This document shows, in pieces, positions 33,569 to 47,942 of a stretch of 64,000 nucleotides of DNA (its first letter is position 1; each line of letters begins with the position of its first letter). This stretch comes from Escherichia phage BAU.Micro_ELP-22. The stretch is from the sequence record OR699282.2; one strand, written 5' to 3'. The notes beneath the pieces are model-generated. The model made no database searches. It worked only from the letters and a program-made list of their open reading frames with translations, and had not been told where the DNA came from. The translations under genes were made by a program, and so were the position numbers.

Positions 33569-33638
33569 ATTCCCTCCTTTATTTGTTATACTATATTTAA
33601 TACAAATAAGAAAGCCAGTACAGTGTACTGGCATTATG

Positions 33639-34748
33639 TTATTTTGGTAAATCAATTTTAGTAAAGACTGCAACATCCTCGATTGCACCTGGAATGGCGT
33701 AATACGATCCAGTACTATACACATCTCCATTTTTGGTTAATATCGATGTCAAACCATCACTAAAAAGAACATCCCTAATCTCACTAACTTCAACGGGTAA
33801 TTGTAAATTGGTAGCACTATATATAGCACCAGTTTGAGAATTGTTTAATCCCAAACCACGGTTCGCCCCAACACCCTTCTGATATGTACTAGTAATTACC
33901 ATTTGTGTAGCAGTATTTAAGGCAGGTGAATTCGTCATAAACAATGGAGAACTATTAGGCAAAGTACTTACAGGAACTGCACGGAATGTAGTCGTACCTG
34001 AACTAAGAAAGTTTGGAGTTTGACCACATACGAAATATGATGTACCATTATAGTAATTTAATGCATTACCACCAATGGCTGCATCGATTACACCAGAACT
34101 ACGCAATCCCCAAGTGTTAATTTGTGTTTGGTTCCCCGTACCATGCTGCCCACTACTATTCCATCCAGAACTATATAGCTTATTATCTAATGTAAGATAC
34201 ATACTATCATTCGCATTGGTCATTACTTTACGAACGTTCGTAGCACATTGAGTTAATGTGTAAATTGATGAGGAACCAATACCCAAAGAACCACGATATC
34301 CATTATCTCCTGCACCATAGAGTACTGAATTAGTGCTAAGTACAAATATTAAACCATTTGTACATACAATATTAGCAATTTCACTTACTGGTATAGCATT
34401 GGTAAACCAATTAGTTCTTTCAACTAATACAGTACTGTAAGAAGTAGTTGTAGAAGATGAGAACCAGTACGTTTGACCTGATGTCCATATCGTATTATCA
34501 TTTTTAATAATAACAAGTGTACGATCACCCACGAAAAAATTAGAAACATCTGCACTTACTAATGTCCACGAAGACACCGTGTTGGTATTACCATTTCCAG
34601 ATTCACCACCTTGATTTCTACCTATGTAATATAAATCATGTGAATCAGTCAATAAGAATTGGCCTTGGGTAGAAGCACCAACTTTAATTATTTTTTTAGG
34701 ACCAGGGACAATATTTCCATACCTAATCATTCTTCCAAAAGGTAACAT
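33639..34748 (-). CDS. RCC1-like repeat protein, leader-peptide family
   Basis: Start at MLPFGRMIRYGNIVPGP; GWNSSGQHGTGN; SD overlaps the stop of the upstream gene. Confidence 0.75.
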   Translation of the reverse strand: MLPFGRMIRYGNIVPGPKKIIKVGASTQGQFLLTDSHDLYYIGRNQGGESGNGNTNTVSSWTLVSADVSNFFVGDRTLVIIKNDNTIWTSGQTYWFSSSTTTSYSTVLVERTNWFTNAIPVSEIANIVCTNGLIFVLSTNSVLYGAGDNGYRGSLGIGSSSIYTLTQCATNVRKVMTNANDSMYLTLDNKLYSSGWNSSGQHGTGNQTQINTWGLRSSGVIDAAIGGNALNYYNGTSYFVCGQTPNFLSSGTTTFRAVPVSTLPNSSPLFMTNSPALNTATQMVITSTYQKGVGANRGLGLNNSQTGAIYSATNLQLPVEVSEIRDVLFSDGLTSILTKNGDVYSTGSYYAIPGAIEDVAVFTKIDLPK

Positions 34749-34756
34749 ATTCCCTC

Positions 34757-35959
34757 CTATTGTTGCCATAACTGCGTTGGCATTAATGTTAGTGTAGTAG
34801 TACTATAAGTGCCATCTGGCAATCTACCACCATTTCCATTCCAGCCACCACATGCATATAATTTATAATCTTTAGTAATTATTATGGTTCTGCTCCAATC
34901 TTTAGATGCCATAAGAACATTGTCATAACCACCACTTATTGCACTAAGATTAAAAATATTCCAAGTTCTAACTAATGTATTAGTTCCATTACCTTCTTGA
35001 CCATATGAGTTAGCACCACTACTTCTAACATATGGTGCGTATTGTGCCATAGGTGCACCAATTGATGCATTTCCCATATTACTTGGACAAATAAAAGTAC
35101 TGTACTTACTTACATCAACCGTGACCGATGTGTTCCTAATTGGTGTTAGCTGATTTACCGATGTAGTCGTACCATTACCAGCTTGTCCAGAACTGTTAGC
35201 CCCGCTATAATATACAGACCCACCAGTAGTAAACCACCAAGTAACATCGTATGTAGTACTAATATGTTCTACATTACTAATCACGAATTTGTTCAAATAT
35301 ACAACAGAACTACCACCACATCCACTTTCACCAAAGTTATCCTTACCACAAAACCATGCATCTTTATTTGATTTGATATAGTGCGTTCCTTGTAATGAAC
35401 ATGCCATATGTGTAACTTCACCCATATTAGTCATAACTGTGAGTGTAGGGATGGAATTTTTATTCCCAGAGCCACATTCACCATTAGTATTTCTTCCACA
35501 CGCAATTACTCTACCATCGGTTAATAATATTCTAGTACTTTCACCTATATATACACTCTTGATCATATTAGCCATAACACCTATTTTATTAAATGCAACA
35601 GTAACATCAGTCCATGTTGTCAAATAACCATTAACAGGTGTTGCATCTCCATAATCAGAAAATGCACCCACAGACCCAGTGTAGTATATTTTATTATCCA
35701 AATCAATCATCAATGAACCTTGAACACCAAGCCAAAAGGCTGCACAGTTCCTTGCAAGTACTGTAAATGACGAAACTGCTGCTGAATTCCCAAGACCAAA
35801 TTGATAAAAGTTATTACTACCATAACCATATAAAGTATTAGTTGGGTTATGGAGATACATACAGTTTGTATAATGTTGTTGTAAAACATCTGAGAACTCT
35901 ACAGGTACTGGACCTGGTGCAATATTTGCGTACTTAACCATTCTTCCAAAAGGTAACAT
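34757..35959 (-). CDS. RCC1-like repeat protein, leader-peptide family
   Basis: 400 aa; MLPFGRMVKYANIAPGP; GANSSGQAGNG, GRNTNGECGSGN. Confidence 0.8.
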   Translation of the reverse strand: MLPFGRMVKYANIAPGPVPVEFSDVLQQHYTNCMYLHNPTNTLYGYGSNNFYQFGLGNSAAVSSFTVLARNCAAFWLGVQGSLMIDLDNKIYYTGSVGAFSDYGDATPVNGYLTTWTDVTVAFNKIGVMANMIKSVYIGESTRILLTDGRVIACGRNTNGECGSGNKNSIPTLTVMTNMGEVTHMACSLQGTHYIKSNKDAWFCGKDNFGESGCGGSSVVYLNKFVISNVEHISTTYDVTWWFTTGGSVYYSGANSSGQAGNGTTTSVNQLTPIRNTSVTVDVSKYSTFICPSNMGNASIGAPMAQYAPYVRSSGANSYGQEGNGTNTLVRTWNIFNLSAISGGYDNVLMASKDWSRTIIITKDYKLYACGGWNGNGGRLPDGTYSTTTLTLMPTQLWQQ

Positions 35960-36030
35960 ATTTCCCTCCTTTATTCATTATACTATATTTAATACAAAAA
36001 GAAATGCCAGTATCAAGTACTGGCATCGTA

Positions 36031-37140
36031 TTACTTGGGTAATGGAATTGTGGTCCATCTATTTGCGGCAACGTCACCTGGTACATATGTAGGACTACCA
36101 CTTACAGCAATAGTTTCATTACCATCATATACAACACTGAAGTTTGTGCACGTATACAACGCTGCGGCATCTGGATTGTAATTTTCAAGTGTTAGTGTAT
36201 TGGTGAACAAATTCAATGCAGTAGTTGAGCCGTTTTTACCATATGCACCTGTAGTATATATCTTTCCTTCTGTTGTTGAGTACATATTAACATATGACCC
36301 AGATGATGATTTAGCAATTTTATCTATCTTGCTATCTATTGTTTTAGAGTTAAATTGAAATGGATATACCTGTACGTTAGTATCTAAACCATTTCCCAGT
36401 TCCCCATTTAACTGCCACCCTGTGTGGTACATTCCCGCATTTGTATATGCAAGCGTACTATACGCATTACCACCCATTATTTTAGTGCCAGATAATTTTA
36501 AACCAAACGATGTCCACTTACCAGTTTCATTTCCTATGGAACCATAAGCACTTGTACCACACGCACGAAGCTCGCCATTTGACGTTAGAAGCACTGTATT
36601 ATTAACGTTACCAAATATATCAATAACCTGATTAGTGCCATTATTCAGTACTGAAGTAAAAGTACTCTGTGAGTAAGTACTACCTGAACCAACAGAACCA
36701 TTTGTGTTCATACCTCTTCCATATACAATTTTACCATCAGCACTAACATAGTGCATTGAATCAAAACCAATGGATATCATTTTAATATCAGATATATCTG
36801 GAAATGAAGAAGTTACATCTACTCCACCTAGTGGAATTGTATTATTTCCTAAACCTAATGAGACATTAGTTCCGTGCATTATAAATTTATCTTCTTTAAA
36901 ATATAAAATATTATATCCACCAGCCCATGCATTATTAACGCCATTTGTAATCAGTACCCATTTATTTTGTGTAGTAGTTCCAGTAATATTTAACTGTTGA
37001 TAGTTATTGATTCCACAACCATATAGCGATCCATCACCATATAGTACATATAAATTATCATATCCTGCAATAACTTTCTTTATTTTTTTGGGTACAGGTG
37101 CTACGTTCCCATAATTCATCATTCTTGCAAAAGGTAACAT
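36031..37140 (-). CDS. RCC1-like repeat protein, leader-peptide family
   Basis: 369 aa; MLPFARMMNYGNVAPVP; first gene of the array, divergent from the 37244 promoter. Confidence 0.8.
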   Translation of the reverse strand: MLPFARMMNYGNVAPVPKKIKKVIAGYDNLYVLYGDGSLYGCGINNYQQLNITGTTTQNKWVLITNGVNNAWAGGYNILYFKEDKFIMHGTNVSLGLGNNTIPLGGVDVTSSFPDISDIKMISIGFDSMHYVSADGKIVYGRGMNTNGSVGSGSTYSQSTFTSVLNNGTNQVIDIFGNVNNTVLLTSNGELRACGTSAYGSIGNETGKWTSFGLKLSGTKIMGGNAYSTLAYTNAGMYHTGWQLNGELGNGLDTNVQVYPFQFNSKTIDSKIDKIAKSSSGSYVNMYSTTEGKIYTTGAYGKNGSTTALNLFTNTLTLENYNPDAAALYTCTNFSVVYDGNETIAVSGSPTYVPGDVAANRWTTIPLPK

Positions 37141-37243
37141 ATATCCCTCCTTTATTCATTATATCATATTTACCCCATAAAGAAAACCCTTGACATCCTT
37201 TCAGTACTGGTGTACTATAGAAGGAATATAAGGAGAACTACAC

Positions 37244-37471
37244 ATGACAAATACTCTTAAGTACTACCTGAATACTCTAAATGAACTAGAGTACGGTGAG
37301 TTTCTCGCAGATAGTTCGTGGCTAATTGAGCTAAAAAATTATAATAGTCCAGGATGCACCCTTATGATGAACAATGCAATTGATACCCTCATAGTAAGCA
37401 TATTGCACAGCAACATCTGCGGGGATAGCAATAAACAATTATCAAAAATCTTAGTACTGCTATCTATATGA
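37244..37471 (+). CDS. small protein, tandem family S (75 aa)
   Basis: SD AAGGAGAA; first member of array. Confidence 0.6.
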   Translation: MTNTLKYYLNTLNELEYGEFLADSSWLIELKNYNSPGCTLMMNNAIDTLIVSILHSNICGDSNKQLSKILVLLSI

Positions 37472-37671
37472 ATATCGAACAGTACTACATCGATGCACTA
37501 CCAACAAAAGGTCTACGTGAAAGCCTACTGCATACACAAACTAATTTCAAACACCTCAAACGTAGCCCTAAACTCCTGAACTCGTACAGGAATAATAACA
37601 TAAGAAATGCTTTACAAGGGGTAGAATGTATGCAATACTATTACATCCTTACCCTATTAATCGAGTACTAA
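37468..37671 (+). CDS. small protein, tandem family S
   Basis: 67 aa; ends LTLLIEY. Confidence 0.6.
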   Translation: MNIEQYYIDALPTKGLRESLLHTQTNFKHLKRSPKLLNSYRNNNIRNALQGVECMQYYYILTLLIEY

Positions 37672-37672
37672 T

Positions 37673-37882
37673 ATGAATACTGAACATAAAGAATTCTACA
37701 CCAAATACCTTAGCAACGAAGAACAATTGTTTCTAAGGAGTGTATCACCTGTAAGTACCAATACTCAATTCGGTAGAGATTGCTTTAATAATTGTATACG
37801 TAGTACTCTAGAAGCAATCGAATGCAATAACAAAAATATTATGTACTCAGGTTTAATAGGACTAATATATTTCTATGAATAA
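37673..37882 (+). CDS. small protein, tandem family S
   Basis: 69 aa; MNTEHKEFY..C..LIYFYE. Confidence 0.6.
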   Translation: MNTEHKEFYTKYLSNEEQLFLRSVSPVSTNTQFGRDCFNNCIRSTLEAIECNNKNIMYSGLIGLIYFYE

Positions 37883-38069
37883 TCATAAAGATTTCTATTG
37901 TAGTAAACTACCCAAACAAGAACAGCTATCATTCTCTTTAGCACCACCTATGAGAAAGGATAATCTGTATTATAATTACGATTTCAGGATGGTGACACGT
38001 TATGCAATAGAACATCAGTTCCCTGAAACTAAGTACCGCTCTATCCTGAACCTCATCTTTAAGTTCTAA
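37875..38069 (+). CDS. small protein, tandem family S
   Basis: 64 aa; MNNHKDFY..LIFKF. Confidence 0.6.
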   Translation: MNNHKDFYCSKLPKQEQLSFSLAPPMRKDNLYYNYDFRMVTRYAIEHQFPETKYRSILNLIFKF

Positions 38070-38121
38070 AAGGTACACCAGGGACCGAGTACTTTAATAT
38101 AGTAAGGCTAATTACATTATA

Positions 38122-38307
38122 ATGAATCATATAAGCTACTACTACCAACAACTATCCGACAGAGACAAGTACAGTCACAACTCCCATGTGTGGTACTACA
38201 AACGCGGCAGTATAAGAGACAAACAACATTACTTCTGTATTTCTATTAAAGAAGCACTGACAACTAAGTACACGTACCGAGCAGTACTTAAACTTATTGA
38301 AATGTAA
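38122..38307 (+). CDS. small protein, tandem family S
   Basis: 61 aa; ..YTYRAVLKLIEM. Confidence 0.55.
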   Translation: MNHISYYYQQLSDRDKYSHNSHVWYYKRGSIRDKQHYFCISIKEALTTKYTYRAVLKLIEM

Positions 38308-38317
38308 AGAGAATACT

Positions 38318-38500
38318 ATGAACATTGAATTGTACTTAAGTAAATTACAGCCTGGCGATAGATTCATCTACAATAAGTTCGAATTCAACTACAAGAACGG
38401 GAGCAACAAATATCGTCGAGGATACCTATATACAAGCACAAGAGATGCACAAAACGAAAAGTACACATACAGAGAAGTACTTAAACTAATCTCTATTTGA
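38318..38500 (+). CDS. small protein, tandem family S
   Basis: Internal ATG; ..YTYREVLKLISI. Confidence 0.55.
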   Translation: MNIELYLSKLQPGDRFIYNKFEFNYKNGSNKYRRGYLYTSTRDAQNEKYTYREVLKLISI

Positions 38501-38508
38501 GGTAATAT

Positions 38509-38694
38509 ATGAATACATTTGAGTACTATACCAATAAACTATCTATGCCTGAAAGATCTCATCTCTATGTGTGGAGAAATGCGTATAAAAGCGGCAATAA
38601 ACTTATACAAAGAAATTCCCTTACAGTGTGTACAAATTTAATTAAAGCAGAGTACCGCACATATATTGAAGTACTCAAACTGATAGCAATATAA
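38509..38694 (+). CDS. small protein, tandem family S
   Basis: 61 aa; MNTFEYY..C..VLKLIAI. Confidence 0.6.
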   Translation: MNTFEYYTNKLSMPERSHLYVWRNAYKSGNKLIQRNSLTVCTNLIKAEYRTYIEVLKLIAI

Positions 38695-38702
38695 GGTACT
38701 CT

Positions 38703-38882
38703 ATGCAAGAATTCTATATCTATAACCTCCAGCACAAAGATAGATACAACTATAATAAATTCCAAAGGTACTACACAGTCGGGAACAAAAGAGATAAAAA
38801 ACGTTATCTACTCTCGTGTACAGTAGAAGCACAAAACGAAAAGTACACGTACAGAGAAGTACTTAAACTAATCTCAATCTAA
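38703..38882 (+). CDS. small protein, tandem family S
   Basis: 59 aa (below track cutoff); MQEFY..YTYREVLKLISI. Confidence 0.55.
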   Translation: MQEFYIYNLQHKDRYNYNKFQRYYTVGNKRDKKRYLLSCTVEAQNEKYTYREVLKLISI

Positions 38883-38889
38883 GGTAGAC

Positions 38890-39078
38890 ATGAACACTTT
38901 TGAGTACTACTTCAATAAACTAAACCACATAGAACAAAGTATGCACTACACATTTATTCAGAACCATCAATCATCTTCACCTCTAATTAAAAACATATCG
39001 ATTGAGATTATAACTAACAGTGTACTGTCATCTGAACGTTATATGTATATTGATGTACTGAAACTCATCTCTATGTAA
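38890..39078 (+). CDS. small protein, tandem family S
   Basis: 62 aa. Confidence 0.6.
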   Translation: MNTFEYYFNKLNHIEQSMHYTFIQNHQSSSPLIKNISIEIITNSVLSSERYMYIDVLKLISM

Positions 39079-39086
39079 GGAATACT

Positions 39087-39266
39087 ATGCAACAATTCTA
39101 TAGAGAACACATAAGCATTAAAGACCGTTTCATGTACGACACCTTCGTGAAGTACTACAAACTAGGAACAAAAAGTACTAAAAATATTAATCTCAATAGC
39201 TGCATTTATGCTGTACTAACACAAGATAATCCCTACAGGGAAATCATTGCCCTGGCATCTATATAA
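39087..39266 (+). CDS. small protein, tandem family S
   Basis: 59 aa (below track cutoff); MQQFY.. Confidence 0.5.
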   Translation: MQQFYREHISIKDRFMYDTFVKYYKLGTKSTKNINLNSCIYAVLTQDNPYREIIALASI

Positions 39267-39276
39267 AGGAAACCAA

Positions 39277-39936
39277 ATGAAACTTAATCCACACAGCAAA
39301 CAATACCTTAAGCACTTTAAGTACCTCAACAGTATTCAAGCAGAATCTTTTACACCAACATATACTTACGACCCGTGTGTACTAAAGAAACGAAATAAAA
39401 AGAAAAAATCCAGAAATGTTCTCGTATCTAAGAACCTCAAATCGTACTTGAAGAAAAATAATATAGCTCTTGCTTTTATTAATATCTATAATACTGATTT
39501 AAAAGTATTGAGTACTAATACCAGCACAAAAGCACTAAAGAATGCATCTATCTATATACACATGGATAATATCCCGTGCACTATAATTCTATCTTTCGGG
39601 AATGTATACTTCTTCGGGAATTGTAATAGCACCCATGATATCAGTACTGCACAATTCCAAATCGGCGATATGTACTGCATGGGTTCAGAAAAAATACACG
39701 ATAACATGCACTTCTTCCAAAAGCAACGTACTAACGAAACTGATACAGTACTGCAATTCCTCAAAGAACTAGAACACAAAGAATTATCCGAGGAAGAAGA
39801 ATTCATGTACAGTACTGTAATCGATAATCCAGGACTCTATAAAAACGCGTACAAACTAACAAAACATGTACAGGAACTTATCAGTACTGATAAGAAATTT
39901 CATCACCTCATTACGTATATTTCAAACTATGTATAA
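39277..39936 (+). CDS. hypothetical protein (219 aa) inserted in small-gene array
   Basis: Internal ATG with SD AAAGGAAA; unrelated to array members. Confidence 0.55.
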   Translation: MKLNPHSKQYLKHFKYLNSIQAESFTPTYTYDPCVLKKRNKKKKSRNVLVSKNLKSYLKKNNIALAFINIYNTDLKVLSTNTSTKALKNASIYIHMDNIPCTIILSFGNVYFFGNCNSTHDISTAQFQIGDMYCMGSEKIHDNMHFFQKQRTNETDTVLQFLKELEHKELSEEEEFMYSTVIDNPGLYKNAYKLTKHVQELISTDKKFHHLITYISNYV

Positions 39937-40111
39937 AGAATACTACAAAGATAAAATCCCAATGCATCTACAACACCATATACCAAACGTTGCATTGGGT
40001 ATCAAAGATCACGCAAAGATAATGTTCCAACAATGTACTAAGTACACGCTCATATACGATGATAATCCATATATGCTGTACTACGTAGTAATGCTAACAT
40101 TCAGGTACTAA
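39929..40111 (+). CDS. small protein, tandem family S
   Basis: MYKEYYKDKIPMHLQ..LTFRY; start overlaps upstream stop. Confidence 0.55.
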   Translation: MYKEYYKDKIPMHLQHHIPNVALGIKDHAKIMFQQCTKYTLIYDDNPYMLYYVVMLTFRY

Positions 40112-40112
40112 T

Positions 40113-40292
40113 ATGAATACTTATAAAGAATTCTACCTCTCGTACCTTAATTCCGATATAGTAACATCCAATACATTCAGTACTAAAATTATCTATAATG
40201 AAGTAATGAAAGAATGTATTAAAGGTGCTATTAACCCTAAAGATACGTATGACTTGTACTATGCAGTACTAACCCTTGTTTTCACGAAATAA
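40113..40292 (+). CDS. small protein, tandem family S
   Basis: 59 aa (below cutoff); MNTYKEFY..C..LVFTK. Confidence 0.5.
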   Translation: MNTYKEFYLSYLNSDIVTSNTFSTKIIYNEVMKECIKGAINPKDTYDLYYAVLTLVFTK

Positions 40293-40300
40293 CACATAAT

Positions 40301-40492
40301 ATGAATAACCACAAAGAATACTACATAGAGAAACTCCCAATGTATCTACAACACCTTGTACCAACAGAACCATTGCGTATAGAAAAAGACTACGAAAAAG
40401 ACTATTTCATTAAGTGCACTAAATCCTCGATAGATATTGAGGACTATAATAGAGTACTGTATCACATCCTTTTACTAATATATAAGTACTAA
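40301..40492 (+). CDS. small protein, tandem family S
   Basis: 63 aa; MNNHKEYYIEKLPMYLQ..C..LLIYKY. Confidence 0.65.
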   Translation: MNNHKEYYIEKLPMYLQHLVPTEPLRIEKDYEKDYFIKCTKSSIDIEDYNRVLYHILLLIYKY

Positions 40493-40493
40493 T

Positions 40494-40682
40494 ATGAATA
40501 ACCACAAAGAATACTACATAGAGAAACTCCCAATGTATCTCCAGAGCCAGATACCAAACGTTGCATTGGGCATAAAAGATGACGCAAAAACAATGTTCCA
40601 AGAATGTACTAAGTACACCCTAATGTTCGAGGATAGAACATATAAACTGTACTACATCCTCGCCCTAATATTCAAGTACTAA
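40494..40682 (+). CDS. small protein, tandem family S
   Basis: 62 aa; N-terminus identical to previous member, tail ALIFKY. Confidence 0.65.
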   Translation: MNNHKEYYIEKLPMYLQSQIPNVALGIKDDAKTMFQECTKYTLMFEDRTYKLYYILALIFKY

Positions 40683-40692
40683 AGAGAATAAT

Positions 40693-40881
40693 ATGAATAA
40701 CCACAAAGAATACTACATACAATTTCTCCCCAGTATATTTGAACACTACGCCAGATATAAAGTCCCCCTGGATAACGATTTGGCAGTACTGGGATTCAAT
40801 AATTGCATAGAACGAAGTATAGAAAATAGTAGTAGTTATGACCAGCTATATAACACTATCCTACTTATATTCAGGTACTAA
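40693..40881 (+). CDS. small protein, tandem family S
   Basis: 62 aa; ..LLIFRY. Confidence 0.65.
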   Translation: MNNHKEYYIQFLPSIFEHYARYKVPLDNDLAVLGFNNCIERSIENSSSYDQLYNTILLIFRY

Positions 40882-40882
40882 T

Positions 40883-41071
40883 GTGTATAAAGAATACTAC
40901 ATAAAAGATTTACCACCGCACCTTCAAGGTAATCTGTTAGAAGATGAACCTCGCGGTATAGAAATAAACTACGAAAAAGACTACTTTATTACGTGCACTA
41001 AATGCGTGATAAATTATTACAACTACAATCAAGTACTGTATCATACCCTGTACTTAGCATTCGTATTCTAA
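40883..41071 (+). CDS. small protein, tandem family S (GTG start)
   Basis: Family frame begins VYKEYYIKDLPP at GTG; ATG lost relative to paralogs. Confidence 0.5.
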   Translation: MYKEYYIKDLPPHLQGNLLEDEPRGIEINYEKDYFITCTKCVINYYNYNQVLYHTLYLAFVF

Positions 41072-41080
41072 GAGAACAAT

Positions 41081-41269
41081 ATGCATAAAGAATACTACAC
41101 AAAATATTTCCCAATGTACCTCAGAACTAATCTATTAGATAAACCTCGCGGTATCAATGCTCAAAACGATAAAGTGTACTTTACTATGTGCACTAAAGCA
41201 TGTATACTAGATTTTGATAGCTATCATCGAGTACTGTATCATACCCTGTACCTAGCTTTCGTATTCTAA
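41081..41269 (+). CDS. small protein, tandem family S
   Basis: 62 aa; MHKEYY..C..YLAFVF. Confidence 0.65.
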   Translation: MHKEYYTKYFPMYLRTNLLDKPRGINAQNDKVYFTMCTKACILDFDSYHRVLYHTLYLAFVF

Positions 41270-41278
41270 AAGAACAAT

Positions 41279-41464
41279 ATGCATAAAGAATTCTACTTAA
41301 GCCATCTCGATCTAAACTCCCAAATGCTTATACCACTAATCCCAATAGATATCAAGGATAAGAAAAATACCGAACAATTCATTTACCATACACAGTGTGC
41401 GATCACCCCAAATTACATTCCATATGAATTGTACTACATTCTCGCCCTAATATATAGGTACTAA
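41279..41464 (+). CDS. small protein, tandem family S
   Basis: 61 aa; ..ALIYRY. Confidence 0.65.
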   Translation: MHKEFYLSHLDLNSQMLIPLIPIDIKDKKNTEQFIYHTQCAITPNYIPYELYYILALIYRY

Positions 41465-41465
41465 T

Positions 41466-41651
41466 ATGCATAGAGAATACTACACACAATTTGTTAAAGG
41501 GAACTACAAACATGCCGTACCCAGAACCCCTTTAAATTTTCATGACCCAAGTACTATATTCTTGTTCCATGACGCAATACGTACAGTACTCAATACTAAA
41601 GATGAAGATGTGCAGTACGTATTCTTACTATTACTTATATACAGACACTAA
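41466..41651 (+). CDS. small protein, tandem family S
   Basis: 61 aa; MHREYY..LLLIYRH. Confidence 0.6.
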   Translation: MHREYYTQFVKGNYKHAVPRTPLNFHDPSTIFLFHDAIRTVLNTKDEDVQYVFLLLLIYRH

Positions 41652-41656
41652 CTAAT

Positions 41657-41866
41657 ATGAATAAAGAACATAAAGAATTCTACTCCAAATACATAAGCCC
41701 CTCAGAACAAATGTTTCTAAGGACTACAGCACCTTTAAGTACTAATACATTTTTCGGCAGAGTATGCTACAATAATTGTATTCAAATGACTTTAAACGCA
41801 AACGAAGATGGTAACAGTACTAACCTGTACTCAGGTATCATAGGTATACTATTCCTGTATGAATAA
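41657..41866 (+). CDS. small protein, tandem family S
   Basis: 69 aa; close paralog of 37673..37882. Confidence 0.65.
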   Translation: MNKEHKEFYSKYISPSEQMFLRTTAPLSTNTFFGRVCYNNCIQMTLNANEDGNSTNLYSGIIGILFLYE

Positions 41867-42047
41867 TTACAAAGACTTCTATTTGAATACACTACCTACT
41901 GTACTTTCTCTAAGTGCTCAATGTAAAATCCCCCTGGATAATGCTTACGCCAGATATAGCTATTCCATAACTGTTAATCGATGTATAGAGAATCATTGCA
42001 GTACTAACCAGTACTATAACATAATCCTACTTATATTCAGGTACTAA
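41859..42047 (+). CDS. small protein, tandem family S
   Basis: 62 aa; ..LLIFRY. Confidence 0.6.
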   Translation: MNNYKDFYLNTLPTVLSLSAQCKIPLDNAYARYSYSITVNRCIENHCSTNQYYNIILLIFRY

Positions 42048-42048
42048 T

Positions 42049-42231
42049 ATGAATAAAGAACATAAAGAATTCTATATACGAAAACTAACATTCGTCCCCG
42101 TAAGAATATATAAAGAATGCGACCCAAGATTATACCTATGGCACTTCAATGAGTGCATAAAAGATTCTATATACCCTAAGAACTATAAAGAACAATTGTG
42201 CTCAGTACTAACACTAGTACTATCATATTAA
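42049..42231 (+). CDS. small protein, tandem family S
   Basis: 60 aa. Confidence 0.6.
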   Translation: MNKEHKEFYIRKLTFVPVRIYKECDPRLYLWHFNECIKDSIYPKNYKEQLCSVLTLVLSY

Positions 42232-42246
42232 TTAATAGAGAATACT

Positions 42247-42447
42247 ATGCATAAAGAGTATAAAAACTTCTATATAAGTAAACTAAAAGAAAATGAACAA
42301 GTATGGATTAGATCTATAATTCCACTGGCATTTAATAGATATGCATTTAACAGATGTACCGAGATTGCTATAGACCCTTATAATATTAAAGAGAATGTAC
42401 AGTATAATCAGTACTACTATATCTTAATGCTTATATATAGAAAGTAA
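42247..42447 (+). CDS. small protein, tandem family S
   Basis: 66 aa; ..LMLIYRK; last member. Confidence 0.6.
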   Translation: MHKEYKNFYISKLKENEQVWIRSIIPLAFNRYAFNRCTEIAIDPYNIKENVQYNQYYYILMLIYRK

Positions 42448-43439
42448 TTAAACACATAGAGACAGGGGAAGCTCCTAGTGAACAACCTTTATGTACAGGC
42501 GAATTGTTAAAATTCAGCCTGGACAAATGCGATCACTAGGATTCTCCCCAGGCTAAACCCCGTAATCATAGGTAGTCATAAGTAATCATATATAAACATT
42601 TATATGAGCACCGTAGAATCACAGAATGATTATATATGATTCAGTACTGATTAGTATAGACAAGATTGCTCAAGAATGCACGGAAATGTGTGTGAATGAT
42701 TCAGTACTGATATCCCACTAAAGTAGGCAGAGGAAGTCTGCCGTACTTTGTAGTTTCCAAGCTCCTTTTCCATTTTTCAAATTACATCAAATGTAATCAA
42801 AAGTAATCACGCAATGATTAGTACTGAATTATTACTTTCACCTTAATTTCAATTACCCCTTTACCCTTCGGGGTAAAATTCCATTACCCCTTGAGGCTCC
42901 AGCAAAAAGTTGGTTAGTACTCCATCCTAAATCTCGATCCTAAAAATTTTGGAGTACCTATGAAATAAAAGTTGGATCTTCGAAAGTTGAAATTTACGTT
43001 GGGACGTTTATGATTTGTGGGATATAATGATGTTTGTAGTCGGGTAGTTCTCAAGAATATCAGTACTGAATGGTGAAAGAAAGTTATTGACATTATGATT
43101 CAGTACTGTATAATGTTCTACATAGAGAGATGAGTTGCTGCGAACAATTCATTTACTCTACCTCCTGTCGTGAGACAGTACAGAAAAGATAGTTCCTCCT
43201 GTGGTGGTACATCTTTTTGAACCTCATATGAAAATCGTAATAACAGTACTGATATTAACAGAATGGTGTCAGTACTGATTTTAATCTAAATCATTATGCC
43301 ACCAGCACAAGCTGGTGGATTCCCTCTAACAGTATTCAGTACTACATGATAGTCTTCATCCTCCTAGGGTAACATAGTGAGGGCTATGATGGCAGTACTG
43401 AATACTCCCTTTCAAAAGATAGATCTATGGTATAGTACT

Positions 43440-43630
43440 GACGGATTTTGGGTGTAGTTACCCTGGATGGATTTTGGGCGTAGATATGTCTAGCCCTCCA
43501 GAAGTCTGGAAGTAAAGATGGCTATCCATCTAGACGGCTAAACGGCTAGATTTCTGGATGGCTGGATGGCTAGACGTTTGGACGGCTAAACGGCTAGATG
43601 GTTACACGTCTGGAAGTATAGACGGCTAAA
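43440..43630. repeat. iteron-like short direct repeats (GACGGCTAAACGGCTAGAT, CTGGATGG, GTCTGGAAGTA)
   Basis: Multiple 8-19 bp units repeated within ~190 bp. Confidence 0.55.
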
Positions 43631-44250
43631 TCAAAATTTTATTTTGTTTTTTCCAATAGTTCCCCTACCGCGTGGGGATAGTTTCCCCGCAGTATCTGGT
43701 GTTAGATTTTTCTGAATCTGGAATCATTATCTTATAAACTGGGGGCAATGTCAACGACCTGGACGGATATTTTTAAAAATTTTTTCAGTACTGAATTTTG
43801 GGCGTAACTATGCACCCGGTGGGCTGGAGTCTTTCTCGACTTGATGGAACTATTATACAGTACTGGAAAAATAAAGCAATACCCTGGAAGCAAAAAAGTT
43901 TTAATTAATTTGCTTGCTATCCTGGGCCGGACTATGGTACTATAATTCAGTACTGAGAAAGTGCGTTTGCCTGCTAGGGTGCGGGAGTGTATCCTTTTTT
44001 TATATCTTGAATTTTGGGCGTAATTCCGCACCCTCTGGGGTTTCCGCTTTCTCGTGTCTATGTAGTAATTATACGCTTTTTCAGGATCAAGTCAATACCT
44101 AAAAACAAAATAATTGAAAATAATTTAACGCGTTTAAACGGCCTGTAAAGCCCTGGAATGATTGGAATGGTGCAAATGTATAGCTTATGTGTATTAATGC
44201 GTTAGAATGCGTCTGAGGCCGTTTTTTGGGGTGTAGTAGTGATTTGGTTG

Positions 44251-44345
44251 ATTCAGTACTGAATAATAGTACTCCTATATAGAAAGATAGTTCCCCTGGA
44301 TTGATTCAGTACTGAATAATAGTACTCCTATATAGAAAGAAAACT
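44251..44345. repeat. ~40-bp direct repeat x2 (GATTCAGTACTGAATAATAGTACTCCTATATAGAAAGA)
   Basis: Two near-identical copies ~55 bp apart. Confidence 0.6.
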
Positions 44346-44371
44346 ATTTTAAAAGTATTTGTAGAAAGTAC

Positions 44372-44399
44372 TTGCACCGTACTGATAAAAGCGTATAAT
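44372..44399 (+). promoter_or_regulatory. class A early-type promoter (AGTACTTGCA..TATAAT) followed by 5' stem-loop
   Basis: First of ~25 similar promoters in 44-64 kb. Confidence 0.6.
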
Positions 44400-44454
44400 G
44401 TTTTACATCGAGAGCGGGAACACTTCCCGCTACACTTTAAAAGAGATGAAAACG

Positions 44455-44817
44455 ATGGCGACTCAAATCAATAAAATCATGCTTAACCTGGTAAACTTCC
44501 GCGATGAGATGAAAGGTCTTCCGGCTGAAACTGTAAAAATTCACATTGCAGCTTATCGGGAACTTATTGCAATGTTGCCGCTTAAGCGTGAACAATACGC
44601 CGCTACTTTGATGCTGGATTCAATGATCCATATAATGATCTCAAATGATTTGACGATGGTTTATCAGTATATGGGCGAAAATTTCGCGGTGTGTAGTAAG
44701 CCAGTACCAGGGATGGCAACAACTGAGGAATTGCACGGCTTAAACTTAAAACAAGATGCATGGGATAATATGCCTCGTTTCCTGGTATGGGCTGACAGTG
44801 GCAAAATTTACAAATAA
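44455..44817 (+). CDS. hypothetical protein
   Basis: Start after hairpin and SD AAGAG (120 aa); track ORF 44398 starts inside the -10. Confidence 0.6.
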   Translation: MATQINKIMLNLVNFRDEMKGLPAETVKIHIAAYRELIAMLPLKREQYAATLMLDSMIHIMISNDLTMVYQYMGENFAVCSKPVPGMATTEELHGLNLKQDAWDNMPRFLVWADSGKIYK

Positions 44818-44911
44818 GTTTAATAAAGTACTTGCATACTAAGTTAAAACAAGTATAATACTTTCTATCAGGTGGGGAATAGTTCCCCACTATAATTAAG
44901 AGATTAATTTT

Positions 44912-45145
44912 ATGAGTACTATTTTAACTGTTTCTCAATCCGTTGCACTGACTGACCTATTAAACGCTTTAAGCCGTTGCACTGAGGTTGGCTTGTTTGA
45001 TGTGGTTGACGTTGCACCGGACGTTATTAATCATTTTTGTGATGCGATGGAAGAATGTAAGGAAGATGATAGCCGTATGATGGCGGTCGCCTTTGAGGAA
45101 GTACAGCCAGGTGAGATCAAAGGTTTACCAGTACTGAAAAAATAG
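44912..45145 (+). CDS. hypothetical acidic protein
   Basis: ORF 77 aa; promoter + hairpin + SD upstream. Confidence 0.65.
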   Translation: MSTILTVSQSVALTDLLNALSRCTEVGLFDVVDVAPDVINHFCDAMEECKEDDSRMMAVAFEEVQPGEIKGLPVLKK

Positions 45146-45227
45146 TACTTGCAAACTAAGTTTAAAAGCGTATAATGTTTTACATCAGGTGGGGAATAGT
45201 TCCCCACTATATAAGAGGATTAAAAAA

Positions 45228-45467
45228 ATGGCAAAATCAAAAATGTTCTTAGGTCACAAAAACAAAACTCATTGGAATGTAAGCCTGTGGATTAATAACG
45301 ATGAGGGATTGTATCGGTTGGCCCTGGATTTTATTAACGACAACACTAATCGCAATGATGCGGCCCGTCATATGATGTTATTTTTAGAACAGACTGGACA
45401 AGATAAAACACCGGACGGATTCAAATATAGCACTACTGCGATCCGTGCGGCGATGGTTGGAATGTAA
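45228..45467 (+). CDS. hypothetical protein, paralog of 47341..47580
   Basis: 79 aa; shared GHKNKTHWNVSLWINN..TPDGFKYSTTAIRAAMVGM. Confidence 0.7.
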   Translation: MAKSKMFLGHKNKTHWNVSLWINNDEGLYRLALDFINDNTNRNDAARHMMLFLEQTGQDKTPDGFKYSTTAIRAAMVGM

Positions 45468-45486
45468 TAGAATAGAATTTATTTAA

Positions 45487-45520
45487 AGTACTATCGCAAA
45501 AAATGATAGTACTTTATAAT
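45487..45520 (+). promoter_or_regulatory. class B promoter flanked by inverted repeat AAGTACTAT..ATAGTACTT
   Basis: Palindromic arms upstream of TATAAT; same architecture at ~58664, ~51040, ~54225, ~54490, ~62010. Confidence 0.5.
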
Positions 45521-45557
45521 AGTGTTTTATTCATACACCAACGATAAGGGCAACAGC

Positions 45558-45824
45558 ATGAATATTAAGTATTTTGCGACGCGTGAACAAGCTCGGATCG
45601 CCGCACGCCAGGACGGGGCAACGTTTAAAGATATGGGCGTACAATCGGAACGTGGTAAACGTTGGGCCATTGTAAAGCGTAGTACCGCCAGATCATTACA
45701 GTACTGGTTAGCGGCCTTAAAAAGTCCCGATAGTGTATCGCGTCGAGTGGTAGAAATAAAGCTCGACCGAAAGGGCAACCGCGTGACCGTGTACCGTACT
45801 AAAAAGATTGCAGTACTTGAATAA
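45558..45824 (+). CDS. hypothetical protein, paralog of 58746..59141
   Basis: 88 aa; YFATREQARIAARQDG..KGNRVTVY shared. Confidence 0.65.
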   Translation: MNIKYFATREQARIAARQDGATFKDMGVQSERGKRWAIVKRSTARSLQYWLAALKSPDSVSRRVVEIKLDRKGNRVTVYRTKKIAVLE

Positions 45825-45911
45825 AAAGTACTTGCAAACTAAGTTTAAAAGCGTATAATGTTTTACATCGAGAGCGGGAACACTTCCCGCCTATAACCTG
45901 GAGTAATAAAA

Positions 45912-46142
45912 ATGACTAATATGTATATGACTGAAGTTAAAACCGTAAAAGATACTACCACAAATAAAGTTACTTACTTACAGCGGATCTGTGGTGTATG
46001 GCAACGTATCAGCAAATCAAAGTACTTTAAATTAACATCATATGCAAACCGTTCGGATTCATTCAGTACTGAAATAAAAGGTAATAAAGTACACCAATAT
46101 GGCACTTATTATTATTATAGCCTGGACGCGATTGCAGTATAA
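45912..46142 (+). CDS. hypothetical protein
   Basis: ORF 76 aa; promoter, hairpin, SD GGAG. Confidence 0.65.
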   Translation: MTNMYMTEVKTVKDTTTNKVTYLQRICGVWQRISKSKYFKLTSYANRSDSFSTEIKGNKVHQYGTYYYYSLDAIAV

Positions 46143-47925: not shown

Positions 47926-47942
47926 GTACTGAGGATTATCTA

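What the first reader, a model, noticed from the sequence alone, without database searches (positions are those of the whole stretch)
37244..42447. Head-to-tail array of 23 diverged ~60-aa paralogs
Twenty-three ORFs of 59-75 aa are packed with 0-10 nt spacers. They share an N-terminal M[NH]..KE[FY]Y.(K)L motif, a central Cys, and a C-terminal Y..L.L[IAV][FY][KR][YF] tail, while the middle varies widely. One member has lost its ATG (GTG at 40883), four fall just under the 60-aa ORF-track cutoff, and an unrelated 219-aa gene is inserted at 39277. Such an expanded family of tiny proteins looks like a diversified set of host-factor binders or inhibitors, but no function can be read from the sequence.
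Basis: seen in the sequence. Interest (0 to 1): 0.8.

Follow-up and report, generated by a model that had tools for sequence, protein, structure and literature searches.

The report
Tandem mini-protein gene array in jumbo coliphage
A giant E. coli virus carries one operon of 23 tiny, related, helical protein genes that are really translated and conserved but vary in number between isolates; what they do is unknown, most plausibly each binds a different host or defence factor early in infection.

Summary
Window 37244-42447 (+) carries 23 back-to-back ORFs of 59-75 aa plus one unrelated 219-aa gene. The window is an Asteriusvirus-type jumbo coliphage (121Q/PBECO4 group, 96% identical to phages E9.1 and JP4). 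The ORFs are real genes: against five relatives dN/dS is 0.30 in the annotated frame and 0.98 and 1.55 in the other two. They are not one uniform family. There are 15 'C-type' members (PHROG 11711), 6 'B-type' members, and 2 marginal ones. B and C are linked by profile-profile alignment, by similar confident AlphaFold models (small helical bundles, pLDDT 89 and 92), and by an intermediate form in a metagenome contig. An invariant sigma-70-type promoter and the only strong Shine-Dalgarno site precede unit 1. Later units abut or overlap, which suggests one translationally coupled operon. Copy number ranges from 16 to 23 in 11 phages, through unit-length indels with breakpoints in the conserved 5' 'KEYY' motif. 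The family occurs only in this phage lineage and matches no Pfam family, PDB sequence or informative fold. Function is inferred, not shown: an early, diversified set of small binders with a conserved core and variable surface. This is a lineage-specific tandem expansion, a known kind of feature. In passing: AGTACT is 13-fold over-represented across the window.

The parts
37190..37218 (+). Sigma-70-type promoter of the array: TTGACA (37190-37195), 17-nt spacer containing CAGTACTG, TACTAT (37213-37218)
   Evidence: Scan hit with 10 of 12 matches. Sequence read. The -35 hexamer, CAGTACTG and the -10 hexamer are invariant in the 11 phages aligned. The hexamers also persist in divergent JNE01 (as TACAAT, without AGTACT) and in metagenome contigs.
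37230..37235 (+). AAGGAG Shine-Dalgarno site of unit 1, the only strong SD in the operon
   Evidence: Duplex with the anti-SD is -9.3 kcal/mol, against 0.7 to -6.9 for all later units. Invariant in 11 phages.
37244..37471 (+). m1, 75 aa, marginal family member
   Evidence: Leave-one-out E = 0.03. N- and C-terminal motifs resemble m22 and m23. Ortholog present in all 10 relatives.
37468..37671 (+). m2, 67 aa, divergent member; overlaps m1 by 4 nt
   Evidence: Leave-one-out E = 0.0012. Its 3' 33 nt are 82% identical to m15.
37673..37882 (+). m3, 69 aa, C-type
   Evidence: Leave-one-out E = 8e-17. 74% nt identity to m21 over the full length.
37875..38069 (+). m4, 64 aa, C-type; overlaps m3 by 8 nt
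   Evidence: Leave-one-out E = 1.8e-10.
38122..38307 (+). m5, 61 aa, B-type; preceded by the only long gap (52 nt)
   Evidence: The B-type HMM gives E = 4.5e-31 (a self-inclusive model).
38318..38500 (+). m6, 60 aa, B-type (an upstream TTG at 38297 would give 67 aa)
   Evidence: AlphaFold model with pLDDT 92.5.
38509..38694 (+). m7, 61 aa, B-type
   Evidence: Leave-one-out E = 1.2e-9.
38703..38882 (+). m8, 59 aa, B-type
   Evidence: Leave-one-out E = 1.9e-12.
38890..39078 (+). m9, 62 aa, B-type
   Evidence: Leave-one-out E = 1.7e-10.
39087..39266 (+). m10, 59 aa, B-type (divergent)
   Evidence: Leave-one-out E = 7.5e-4. The B-type search recovers orthologs such as 121Q gp255.
39277..39936 (+). 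m11, unrelated 219-aa gene held at a fixed place between the B-type and C-type blocks
   Evidence: phrog_29152, function unknown, E = 6e-112. No Pfam hit. No relation to the family. Present in all relatives. dN/dS 0.37-0.51.
39929..40111 (+). m12, 60 aa, C-type; overlaps m11 by 8 nt
   Evidence: Leave-one-out E = 1.2e-12.
40113..40292 (+). m13, 59 aa, C-type
   Evidence: Leave-one-out E = 3.6e-9.
40301..40492 (+). m14, 63 aa, C-type (best-scoring member)
   Evidence: Leave-one-out E = 1.2e-21. phrog_11711 E = 2.7e-27. AlphaFold model with pLDDT 88.6.
40494..40682 (+). m15, 62 aa, C-type; absent from the closest relatives E9.1 and JP4; mosaic of an m14-like 5' end and an m12-like body
   Evidence: Unit-length indel with its breakpoint in the 5' motif.
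40693..40881 (+). m16, 62 aa, C-type
   Evidence: Leave-one-out E = 1.6e-12. Its first 27 nt are identical to those of m14 and m15.
40883..41071 (+). m17, 62 aa, C-type, GTG start; absent from E9.1 and JP4
   Evidence: The TH47 ortholog (97% identical) starts with ATG. Unit-length indel.
41081..41269 (+). m18, 62 aa, C-type
   Evidence: Leave-one-out E = 2.7e-11.
41279..41464 (+). m19, 61 aa, C-type
   Evidence: Leave-one-out E = 7.1e-8.
41466..41651 (+). m20, 61 aa, C-type (divergent)
   Evidence: Leave-one-out E = 2.6e-4.
41657..41866 (+). m21, 69 aa, C-type, paralog of m3
41859..42047 (+). m22, 62 aa, C-type; overlaps m21 by 8 nt, as m4 overlaps m3
42049..42231 (+). m23, 60 aa, C-type
   Evidence: Leave-one-out E = 1.5e-8.
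42247..42447 (+). m24, 66 aa, C-type, last unit
   Evidence: Leave-one-out E = 2.7e-13.
42465..42549 (+). Stable imperfect RNA hairpin just after the last stop codon; possible 3' end or stabiliser of the operon transcript. No U-tract follows, so it is not a canonical intrinsic terminator.
   Evidence: MFE -46.4 kcal/mol against -30.7 +/- 3.7 in shuffles, z = -4.2. Inverted repeat I5.

Best explanation
SHOWN. This is a lineage-specific tandem expansion of a ~60-aa all-helical mini-protein in an Asteriusvirus-type jumbo coliphage. There are 23 translated paralogs: 15 C-type, 6 B-type and 2 marginal. They lie in one gene block with a conserved unrelated 219-aa gene in the middle.

INFERRED FROM SEQUENCE SIGNALS. 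The block is one operon. It is transcribed by host sigma-70 RNA polymerase from an invariant promoter at 37190-37218, which is of the phage's early type. Ribosomes load at the single strong SD of unit 1. The following cistrons, with TAAT-ATG junctions, 8-nt overlaps and weak SDs, are translated largely by termination-reinitiation coupling. The whole set would then be made together, soon after infection.

INFERRED, NOT SHOWN. Each paralog keeps the same hydrophobic core (N-terminal KE[FY]Y helix, F..C on helix 3, Y..L.LI..Y on the last helix). Each presents a different surface and charge. The set would therefore act as a panel of small binders, each titrating a different host, host-defence or phage target.

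SHOWN. The panel is remodelled by homologous recombination between the conserved 5' coding motifs of neighbouring units. This adds, deletes or chimerises whole units, giving 16-23 copies among isolates. Retained orthologs remain under purifying selection.
For: Identity of the window: 96% nt identity to phages E9.1 and JP4, and all matches are ~310-386 kb Escherichia or Salmonella phages.

Coding:
- Ortholog dN/dS is 0.21-0.38 against 10 relatives, and differences by codon position are 325/233/531.
- dN/dS is 0.30 (p = 2e-42) in frame, against 0.98 and 1.55 in the other frames.
- The small ORFs are at least as constrained as the neighbouring 219-aa gene, 0.37-0.51.

Family:
- Leave-one-out HMMs.
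- phrog_11711 matches 15 of 23 members.
- B-type against C-type hhalign is colinear, E = 3e-5, probability 72%.
- Both AlphaFold models are confident small helical bundles with the same last two helices and N-terminal helix.
- A B/C intermediate unit exists in a metagenome contig.

Conserved core, variable surface: column entropies show conserved positions at i, i+3/4, i+7 spacing on helices 3 and 4. pI ranges from 4.7 to 9.6.

Operon and early class:
- The promoter and SD are invariant in 11 phages, while the coding DNA diverges.
- Internal promoter-like sites are no more frequent than in shuffles, and there is no convincing internal terminator.
- The promoter shares -35/CAGTACTG/-10 architecture with a cassette found 24 times in the window against 0.35 expected, mostly in front of the small + strand genes at 43-63 kb.
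- The adjacent RCC1-like virion genes use a different cassette without a -35 element.
- In the related phage CBB, RpoD-like promoters cluster on short ORFs presumed to be early host-takeover genes (PMC5259590).

Not virion proteins: none of phAPEC6 gp540c-548c is in the virion mass-spectrometry list. RCC1-like gp549 and gp551 and a 4.7-kDa protein are in it (PMC7247149).

Dynamics:
- 16-23 copies in 11 phages.
- 19 copies with a different unit mix in metagenome contigs.
- 15 HMM hits, plus an m1-like first ORF that scores no hit, in JNE01.
- Unit-length indels with breakpoints in the motif CACAAAGAATACTAC.
- Mosaic blocks, and 26-27-nt identical 5' ends shared between paralogs.
- Lower dS at the 5' ends.
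Against: - No direct evidence of any binding partner, phenotype, transcript or protein.
- Ortholog evolution is conservative, and paralog dN/dS is 0.4-0.7 with no region convincingly above 1. There is therefore no signature of an ongoing arms race.
- B-type members are uniformly basic (+3 to +6, except m9), which would also suit nucleic-acid binding.
- Tight translational coupling would equally suit subunits of one hetero-oligomeric assembly.
- 'Early' rests on promoter type alone. No transcriptome exists for this genus in the searchable literature.
- The virion proteome argument is weak. Only 8 of the 18 family units in phAPEC6 (9 genes of the block with the 223-aa gene) were annotated, and therefore searchable, and 7-kDa proteins are easily missed.
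Confidence: 0.4

Rival explanations
1. Genome filler. The array is the nearly neutral product of tandem duplication that let the genome grow into a larger headful capsid (the 'ratchet' idea of Hua et al. 2017). The proteins would have little or redundant function.
For: Hua et al. note a tandem array of similar genes in 121Q and read it as duplication-driven genome growth (PMC5646251). Individual units are dispensable: 16-23 copies among viable isolates. Two units are broken in TH47.
Against: Purifying selection acts in the correct frame only. It is as strong as, or stronger than, on the neighbouring gene. ORFs are intact in 10 of 11 genomes, and TH47 is an UNVERIFIED record. Order, promoter and the central 219-aa gene are kept even in JNE01, where members are only 36-50% identical. 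Paralogs are old (dS 0.4 to saturation), yet all are kept open.
Confidence: 0.15
2. Small nucleic-acid-binding regulators or architectural proteins. This would parallel the ~35-copy zinc-ribbon expansion of Bacillus phage G. The targets could be the abundant AGTACT sites or phage transcripts.
For: B-type members are basic, pI 9.2-9.6. The window has a 13-fold excess of the palindrome AGTACT, which needs a binding protein that has not been identified. A precedent for an expanded small putative DNA binder exists in phage G (PMC7824862).
Confidence: 0.15
3. Subunits, chaperones or packaged cargo linked to the neighbouring RCC1-like virion proteins or to the capsid inner body. The set would act as one structural or assembly system, or as T4-IP-like injected proteins with a shared N-terminal targeting leader.
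For: The array sits back-to-back with an 11-gene RCC1-like array, sharing a 103-bp conserved intergenic region. Two RCC1-like proteins are virion components, and 121Q and phAPEC6 have an uncharacterised inner body (PMC7247149, PMC5646251). Coupled translation would give fixed stoichiometry. The shared N-terminal motif superficially recalls the T4 capsid-targeting sequence (from memory, not tested by alignment).
Against: The products are not in the phAPEC6 virion proteome. The promoter class differs from that of the RCC1-like genes. An [LI]-x-E cleavage motif occurs at the end of the N-terminal motif in only 2 of 23 members. The N-terminal helix is part of the folded core in both models. RCC1 and small-ORF copy numbers do not track each other: 121Q has at least as many RCC1-like genes but only 16 units.
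Confidence: 0.12
4. Noncoding tandem repeat or DNA-level element, with ORFs that are open only incidentally.
For: Units are regular (~190 bp). AGTACT sites are twice as dense here as in the window overall. The 5' ends are conserved at nucleotide level.
Against: The frame-specific dN/dS contrast. All 23 ORFs are open in the window and in nearly all relatives. TRF finds no ~190-bp period. AGTACT sites fall in all three frames and at varying positions. The AlphaFold models are confident. There is no Rfam hit.
Confidence: 0.01

Closest known systems
PHROG 11711 (and PHROG 29152 for the 219-aa gene), both 'unknown function'
   Same: 15 of the 23 units match phrog_11711 over its full length, with E down to 5e-28. 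The 219-aa gene matches phrog_29152 at E = 6e-112. The C-type family is therefore already catalogued.
   Different: The PHROG carries no function. It does not cover the six B-type units or m1 and m2. It says nothing about the array, its operon structure or its copy-number dynamics.
Tandem arrays noted in jumbo phages 121Q and G (Hua et al. 2017), and the ~35-copy zinc-ribbon expansion of Bacillus phage G (Iyer et al. 2021)
   Same: A lineage-specific tandem expansion of a small protein in a jumbo phage, read as duplication-driven genome growth (PMC5646251; PMC7824862).
   Different: [quoted passage not shown] 121Q has only 16 units at this locus, so it is unclear whether this array was meant. 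The phage G family is a zinc ribbon. The present family has a single conserved Cys and an all-helical fold.
Host-takeover modules of small early genes, e.g. Bacillus phage SPO1 gp37-60 and the early region of Rak2-like phage CBB
   Same: A cluster of very small genes behind host-sigma-type promoters, presumed to be expressed first and to act on host functions (CBB: PMC5259590; SPO1 from general knowledge).
   Different: Those modules hold mostly unrelated genes, each with its own promoter and RBS. Here there is a single promoter and SD, followed by 23 paralogs that appear translationally coupled.
T-even internal-protein (IP) hyperplastic locus
   Same: A variable set of small proteins that share a conserved N-terminal segment and differ in the rest, with gene content varying between related phages (general knowledge).
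   Different: The defining cleavable capsid-targeting leader and packaging into virions are not supported: an [LI]-x-E motif in 2 of 23 members, and no products in the virion proteome. The C-terminus is conserved as well, and the N-terminus is part of the fold.
Multigene families and 'genomic accordions' of large eukaryotic DNA viruses (ASFV MGF110/360, poxvirus K3L amplification)
   Same: Tandem paralog arrays whose copy number changes by unequal recombination, thought to tune host interaction (general knowledge).
   Different: Different viruses, hosts and protein folds. Here the paralogs are old and individually conserved, not recent amplifications.

Membership tests
Single homologous family comprising all 23 small ORFs | Each member is recognised by a profile built without it | tested here: met
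   Leave-one-out HMMs give E <= 1e-7 for 19 of 23 members, 2.6e-4 to 1.2e-3 for m20, m10 and m2, and 0.03 for m1, which is marginal.
Single homologous family comprising all 23 small ORFs | The B-type (m5-m10) and C-type subfamilies are homologous | tested here: inconclusive
phrog_11711 | Significant full-length match to the PHROG profile | tested here: met
   15 of 23 members match, best E = 5e-28. m14 aligns residues 3-63 to profile positions 1-62 of 62. B-type members, m1 and m2 do not match.
Protein-coding genes (as opposed to a noncoding repeat) | Excess of synonymous over non-synonymous change in the annotated frame only | tested here: met
   dN/dS is 0.30 (Fisher p = 1.7e-42) in frame, 0.98 in frame +1 and 1.55 in frame +2. 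The ratio is 0.21-0.38 for each of 10 relatives.
T4-type internal proteins with a capsid-targeting sequence | N-terminal leader ending in an [LI]-x-E prohead-protease site | tested here: not met
   Only m14 and m15 have Y-I-E at that place. The other 21 do not (sequences). The N-terminal helix is packed into the fold.
T4-type internal proteins with a capsid-targeting sequence | Presence in the mature virion | not testable with these tools
   From the literature only: no gp540c-548c in the phAPEC6 virion mass-spectrometry list. This is weak evidence, because half of the units were not annotated in that genome.
Zinc-ribbon expansions (the phage G type) | Two CxxC/CxxH pairs | tested here: not met
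   One conserved Cys (C39). Members carry 0-3 Cys.
Helix-turn-helix or other known DNA-binding families | Profile or fold match to a DNA-binding domain | tested here: not met
Early (host sigma-70 dependent) transcription class of Rak2/121Q-like phages | RpoD-type -35/-10 promoter upstream, distinct from the late-type motif | tested here: met
   TTGACA-17-TACTAT is invariant in 11 phages. It shares the CAGTACTG element of the window's repeated early-type cassette. The RCC1-like genes use a cassette without a -35 element. Actual timing was not measured.
Anti-defence (e.g. anti-CRISPR-type) operon | Demonstrated inhibition of a defence system, or linkage to an Aca-type HTH regulator | not tested
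   No HTH gene lies in or next to the block. No anti-defence profile library was available. This needs experiment.

The most novel reading that the evidence does not exclude
The array is a natural, recombination-shuffled library of ~60-aa helical 'mini-binders'. One operon delivers some 20 different inhibitors at the start of infection. Each neutralises a different host defence or housekeeping target. The conserved 5' KEYY-coding motif doubles as the crossover site that lets the phage population swap, add and drop cassettes.
Probability: 0.2. Interest if true: 0.75.

Novelty: new member of a known kind. Interest (0 to 1): 0.45.

Why it matters
Jumbo phages are being developed for therapy, yet more than 80% of their genes have no known function. 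This locus accounts for about 1.5% of the genome of a whole genus, and many GenBank records annotate it only in part: PBECO4 annotates 5 of 17 units and BF17 about 11 of 21.

If the units are target-specific inhibitors, they would be a compact source of new anti-host or anti-defence tools. They would also be a tractable model for how phage gene families expand and contract.

If they prove dispensable filler, they bear on the 'capsid ratchet' model of genome growth. In either case the anatomy described here makes direct experiments straightforward: one promoter, coupled cistrons, defined subfamilies and natural presence/absence variants.

Tried and rejected
1. The 219-aa gene as a family member with a large insertion. 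The full length, the termini and 12 N+C chimeras all score no better than shuffled controls. Rejected.

2. T4-like capsid-targeting leader or internal proteins. The cleavage motif is not conserved and there is no virion mass-spectrometry signal. Rejected as membership; kept only as a low-probability rival.

3. Zinc ribbon or metal site. Only one Cys is conserved. Rejected.

4. Tail-anchored or membrane protein. The hydrophobic C-terminal stretch is only ~11-13 residues and packs on helix 3 in both models. Rejected.

5. Searches that gave nothing significant or informative:
- Pfam, NCBIfam and PDB sequence searches.
- BFVD, which returned only family members.
- Rfam on 36.8-45 kb.
- TRF, which found no unit-length period.

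6. Search for relatives outside the lineage. Two word-indexed searches of 5.8 billion proteins and one exhaustive HMM search of 1.84 billion representatives were run. Every hit that carries a source name or has neighbouring genes on record comes from an Asteriusvirus-like phage or contig.

7. Positive selection between paralogs by region. No region is convincingly above 1, and the samples are small.

8. Literature. No paper describes this array apart from one unspecific sentence in Hua et al. 2017. The JP4 virion mass-spectrometry supplement could not be matched to locus tags, and its gel bands began at 18 kDa.

9. RCC1-like copy number does not obviously co-vary with unit number. This was not pursued.

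Full report
WHAT THE WINDOW IS. Megablast of the array and of the upstream 13 kb finds only ~310-386 kb Escherichia and Salmonella jumbo phages of the 121Q/PBECO4 group (genus Asteriusvirus). The best matches are vB_EcoM_E9.1 and JP4, at 96% identity over the whole array. In those records the ORFs are annotated as 'hypothetical protein (x23)'. The window has no tRNA genes.

OBSERVATION. Searches confirm 23 + strand ORFs of 59-75 aa between 37244 and 42447, interrupted by a 219-aa ORF at 39277-39936. Junctions run from an 8-nt overlap to a 15-nt gap, and one gap (before 38122) is 52 nt. Unit 17 starts with GTG at 40883, in register with the family N-terminus, and its TH47 ortholog has ATG. Three units are 59 aa long.

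The alignment shows the stated N-terminal motif and C-terminal tail. In leave-one-out profile tests 19 of 23 members score E <= 1e-7 and four are weaker (m1 is marginal at 0.03). No other ORF fragment in the six-frame translation of the window scores better than E = 0.24.

THE UNITS ARE GENES, NOT A DNA REPEAT. I recovered the orthologous loci of ten phages and identified family members with the HMM.
- Concatenated ortholog pairs give dN/dS of 0.21-0.38. Differences fall 325/233/531 on codon positions 1/2/3.
- As a control, the same ungapped alignments were read in all three frames. They give 0.30 (Fisher p = 1.7e-42) in the annotated frame, 0.98 in frame +1 and 1.55 in frame +2.
- The embedded 219-aa gene evolves at 0.37-0.51, so the mini-genes are at least as constrained.
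- TRF finds no ~190-bp period, and Rfam finds nothing.

FAMILY STRUCTURE. The set is not uniform.
- C-type: m3, m4 and m12-m24, 15 members. This is the group that matches PHROG 11711, of unknown function.
- B-type: m5-m10, with a ...Y.YREVLKLISI tail. It has no PHROG.
- Marginal: m1 and m2.

Profile-profile alignment of B against C is colinear over 54 columns (E = 3.4e-5, probability 72%).

AlphaFold2 with family alignments gives confident models for both types.
- C-type m14 has pLDDT 88.6, with helices at 3-10, 14-17, 30-45 and 49-62 and a Pro-rich loop at 18-29.
- B-type m6 has pLDDT 92.5, with helices at 3-7, 12-27, 30-44 and 47-59.

The 219-aa gene (phrog_29152, function unknown) is unrelated.

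CONSERVED CORE, VARIABLE SURFACE. Across 78 distinct C-type and 26 distinct B-type sequences from 11 phages, the low-entropy columns are K5, E6, Y8, L12, Q17, P24, F36, C39, I44, Y54, L57, L59, I60 and Y63. On helices 3 and 4 they fall at i, i+3/4, i+7 spacing, that is, on one face. The other faces and the 18-29 loop are highly variable.

Net charge ranges from -3 to +6 (pI 4.7-9.6), and Tyr makes up 11.3% of residues.

EXPRESSION SIGNALS. A sigma-70-type promoter lies 26 nt upstream of unit 1: TTGACA, then 17 nt, then TACTAT, at 37190-37218. It is followed by AAGGAG. This 103-bp intergenic region is 96% identical in 11 phages, and the -35 hexamer, CAGTACTG, the -10 hexamer and the SD are all invariant. 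By contrast, m1 protein identity drops to 77-79%. The hexamers and the SD persist in the divergent JNE01 and in metagenome contigs.

The promoter shares its architecture with a cassette, TTGACA/TTGCA-N11-AGTACTGTATAAT, that occurs 24 times in the window against 0.35 expected. Most copies lie in front of the small + strand genes at 43-63 kb.

The RCC1-like genes on the other strand are preceded by a different cassette: a hairpin with a T-run, then AAATATAGTATAATGAATAAAGGAGG, with no -35 element. Two of them are virion proteins in phAPEC6. In the related phage CBB, RpoD-like promoters likewise mark a region of short ORFs taken to be early host-takeover genes.

Within the array, promoter-like hits are no more frequent than in shuffles, and there is no convincing terminator. 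Only unit 1 has a strong SD (-9.3 kcal/mol). The B-type units have TAAGG(T/A) overlapping the preceding stop codon (-4 to -7). Most C-type units have TAAT-ATG junctions or 8-nt overlaps with little or no SD.

A stable hairpin (z = -4.2) follows the last stop codon.

The inference is one early polycistronic mRNA with translational coupling. None of this has been measured.

EVOLUTIONARY DYNAMICS. Copy number in the 11 genomes is 23 (window), 21, 21, 21, 20, 19, 19, 18, 17, 17 and 16 (121Q). A metagenome relative has 19 copies with a different mix, including four consecutive m3/m21-type units. JNE01 gives 15 HMM hits plus an m1-like first ORF that scores no hit.

The window's extra units relative to its closest relatives are m15 and m17. 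Pairwise alignment with E9.1 shows two clean unit-length indels. Their breakpoints lie inside the conserved start motif ATG...CACAAAGAATACTAC, which encodes HKEYY.

Units are mosaics. For example, m15 combines an m14-like 5' end with an m12-like body. m14, m15 and m16 share 27 identical 5' nucleotides, and m21 and m23 share 26. The m3-m4 pair resembles the m21-m22 pair, including the 8-nt overlap.

Synonymous divergence is lower at the 5' ends than in the middle for several pairs, which is consistent with gene conversion. Paralog dN/dS is 0.4-0.7, with dS from 0.4 to saturation. The paralogs are therefore old, and no region is convincingly under positive selection.

The order of features is conserved across the genus: RCC1 array, promoter, m1-m4, B block, 219-aa gene, C block, a ~2 kb ORF-poor stretch, then the early genes.

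DISTRIBUTION.
- Profile searches of 5.8 billion proteins returned 52 hits (whole family) and 32 hits (B-type). All are 39-98 aa, and every hit that carries a source name is from Asteriusvirus-like phages.
- An exhaustive HMM scan of 1.84 billion cluster representatives returned 38 proteins of 41-69 aa. Among the ten weakest, every cluster that carries a source name belongs to phages JNE01 or slurp01.
- tblastn finds the family in 35 of 50,697 phage records, all Escherichia or Salmonella jumbo phages.
- There are no significant Pfam, NCBIfam or PDB sequence matches.

FUNCTION. Nothing here measures function, so I commit to the explanation that fits most of the anatomy: an early, co-expressed panel of mini-proteins on a common helical scaffold, with individualised surfaces that bind different targets. 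The confidence below refers to that explanation.

In favour:
- early-type promoter;
- scaffold-plus-variable-surface pattern;
- wide charge range;
- a protein-interaction-type fold, not an HTH or zinc ribbon;
- absence from the phAPEC6 virion proteome;
- presence/absence variation of single units between isolates, with purifying selection on those retained.

Against, or unresolved:
- no arms-race signature;
- basic B-type members could bind nucleic acid;
- coupling would also suit a hetero-oligomer;
- promoter type is not timing;
- the proteome argument is weak, because only 8 of the 18 family units in phAPEC6 (9 genes of the block with the 223-aa gene) were annotated.

The rivals are genome filler (0.15), nucleic-acid binders (0.15), and a virion, assembly or RCC1-linked role (0.12). 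A noncoding repeat is effectively refuted.

COMPARISON AND NOVELTY. The C-type family already exists as a PHROG, and the genes are deposited as hypothetical proteins. Hua et al. [quoted passage not shown] 121Q has only 16 units at this locus, so it is unclear whether this array was meant.

Lineage-specific tandem expansions of small proteins are a known kind of feature. Examples are the phage G zinc ribbons, the T-even IP loci, and the multigene families of large DNA viruses.

What is new here:
- the subfamily structure and the predicted fold;
- the single-promoter, coupled-cistron architecture;
- the demonstration of frame-specific selection;
- the recombination mechanism and the copy-number range.

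I rate it a new member of a known kind, of moderate interest.

SIDE OBSERVATIONS. The most striking is unrelated to the array as such. AGTACT occurs 295 times in 64 kb against 22 expected, a 13.5-fold excess that makes it the most over-represented hexamer. It is often extended to CAGTACTG (66 copies) or ATTCAGTACTGAAT. It occurs in genes of both strands and in all three frames, and it is preferentially conserved between relatives: 75-90% of sites are intact, against 61-68% for other hexamers. I found no literature on it.

The ORF-poor stretch after the array (42448-44397) is packed with these palindromes. It also holds an 8-bp-period iteron-like run and perfect divergent promoters, and it coincides with the cumulative GC-skew minimum. 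That makes it a candidate origin of replication or regulatory hub.

Noticed in passing
window 1-64000 (whole window): The palindrome AGTACT occurs 295 times against 22.3 +/- 4.6 expected. This is a 13.5-fold excess and makes it the most over-represented hexamer. It occurs about once per 217 bp, in genes of both strands, in all three codon frames and in intergenic DNA. It is often extended to CAGTACTG (66 copies). Sites are preferentially conserved against relatives: 75-90% are intact, compared with 61-68% for other hexamers. The related palindromes GGTACC and CGTACG are absent. This suggests a genome-wide binding or modification site for an unidentified dimeric protein. No literature was found.
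   Followed up: partly
window 42448-44397: A ~2 kb ORF-poor stretch lies directly after the array. It holds at least 14 ATTCAGTACTGAAT-like palindromes, an iteron-like run with 8-bp period (GGAYGGCT, 43500-43628), and perfect sigma-70 promoters on both strands (43087 +, 43852 -). It coincides with the cumulative GC-skew minimum. There is no Rfam hit. The same unannotated gap is present in 121Q, JNE01 and metagenome contigs. It is a candidate replication origin or regulatory hub.
   Followed up: partly
window 43000-63300, also 773, 4735, 15088: A repeated early-type promoter cassette, TTGACA/TTGCA-N11-AGTACTGTATAAT, occurs 24 times against 0.35 expected, and 17 copies are perfect. Many copies are followed by a leader TTTTACATC..GGGGAGAA-ATG-(A/G)TTCTCCCC that can form a hairpin around the start codon of a small gene. 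In six-frame listings the cassettes show up as spurious conserved minus-strand 'ORFs' (...SPLHVKHYTVLKTNCKYYF...).
   Followed up: partly
window 24300-37140, minus strand: An array of 11 RCC1-like (beta-propeller) paralogs lies back-to-back with the small-ORF array. Several are preceded by a conserved hairpin-plus-T-run terminator (GCCAGTACnnnnTACTGGC) and an AAATATAGTATAATGAATAAAGGAGG cassette that lacks a -35 element. The gene next to the array is not orthologous between phages (24% identity), so this array also turns over. Two homologs are virion proteins in phAPEC6.
   Followed up: partly
window 37244-42447: The array's coding strand has a negative GC skew (-0.15 to -0.20) and a strongly positive AT skew. 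The other + strand gene blocks of the window have positive GC skew. This goes with an unusual amino-acid composition: Tyr 11.3%, Gly 1.9%, and few G-initial codons.
   Followed up: partly
loci L004-L009 (GenBank records of SP27, BF17, slurp01, PBECO4, phAPEC6): The array is only partly annotated in several deposited genomes. PBECO4 annotates 5 genes over 17 units, phAPEC6 annotates 8 of 18 units, and BF17 about 11 of 21. Proteomic searches against those annotations cannot detect the missing units.
   Followed up: yes
locus L010 (phage TH47, UNVERIFIED record) 3736-3858 and 4971-5161: Two units are truncated or split by frameshifts: the m8 ortholog stops at 40 aa, and the m16 ortholog is in two pieces. 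This is either pseudogenisation or sequencing error.
   Followed up: no
window 44400-64000: The early-type region holds several two- or three-member paralog families of small genes. Examples are 45189/47341, 45522/58737, 51119/58282 and 50465/60498/63234. Two homologs of the 45189/47341 family carry DUF7249 in a metagenome relative.
   Followed up: no
window 42465-42549: A significantly stable RNA hairpin (z = -4.2) lies immediately after the last unit. Its GGGGA...UCCCC stem resembles the leader hairpins of the early cassettes.
   Followed up: partly
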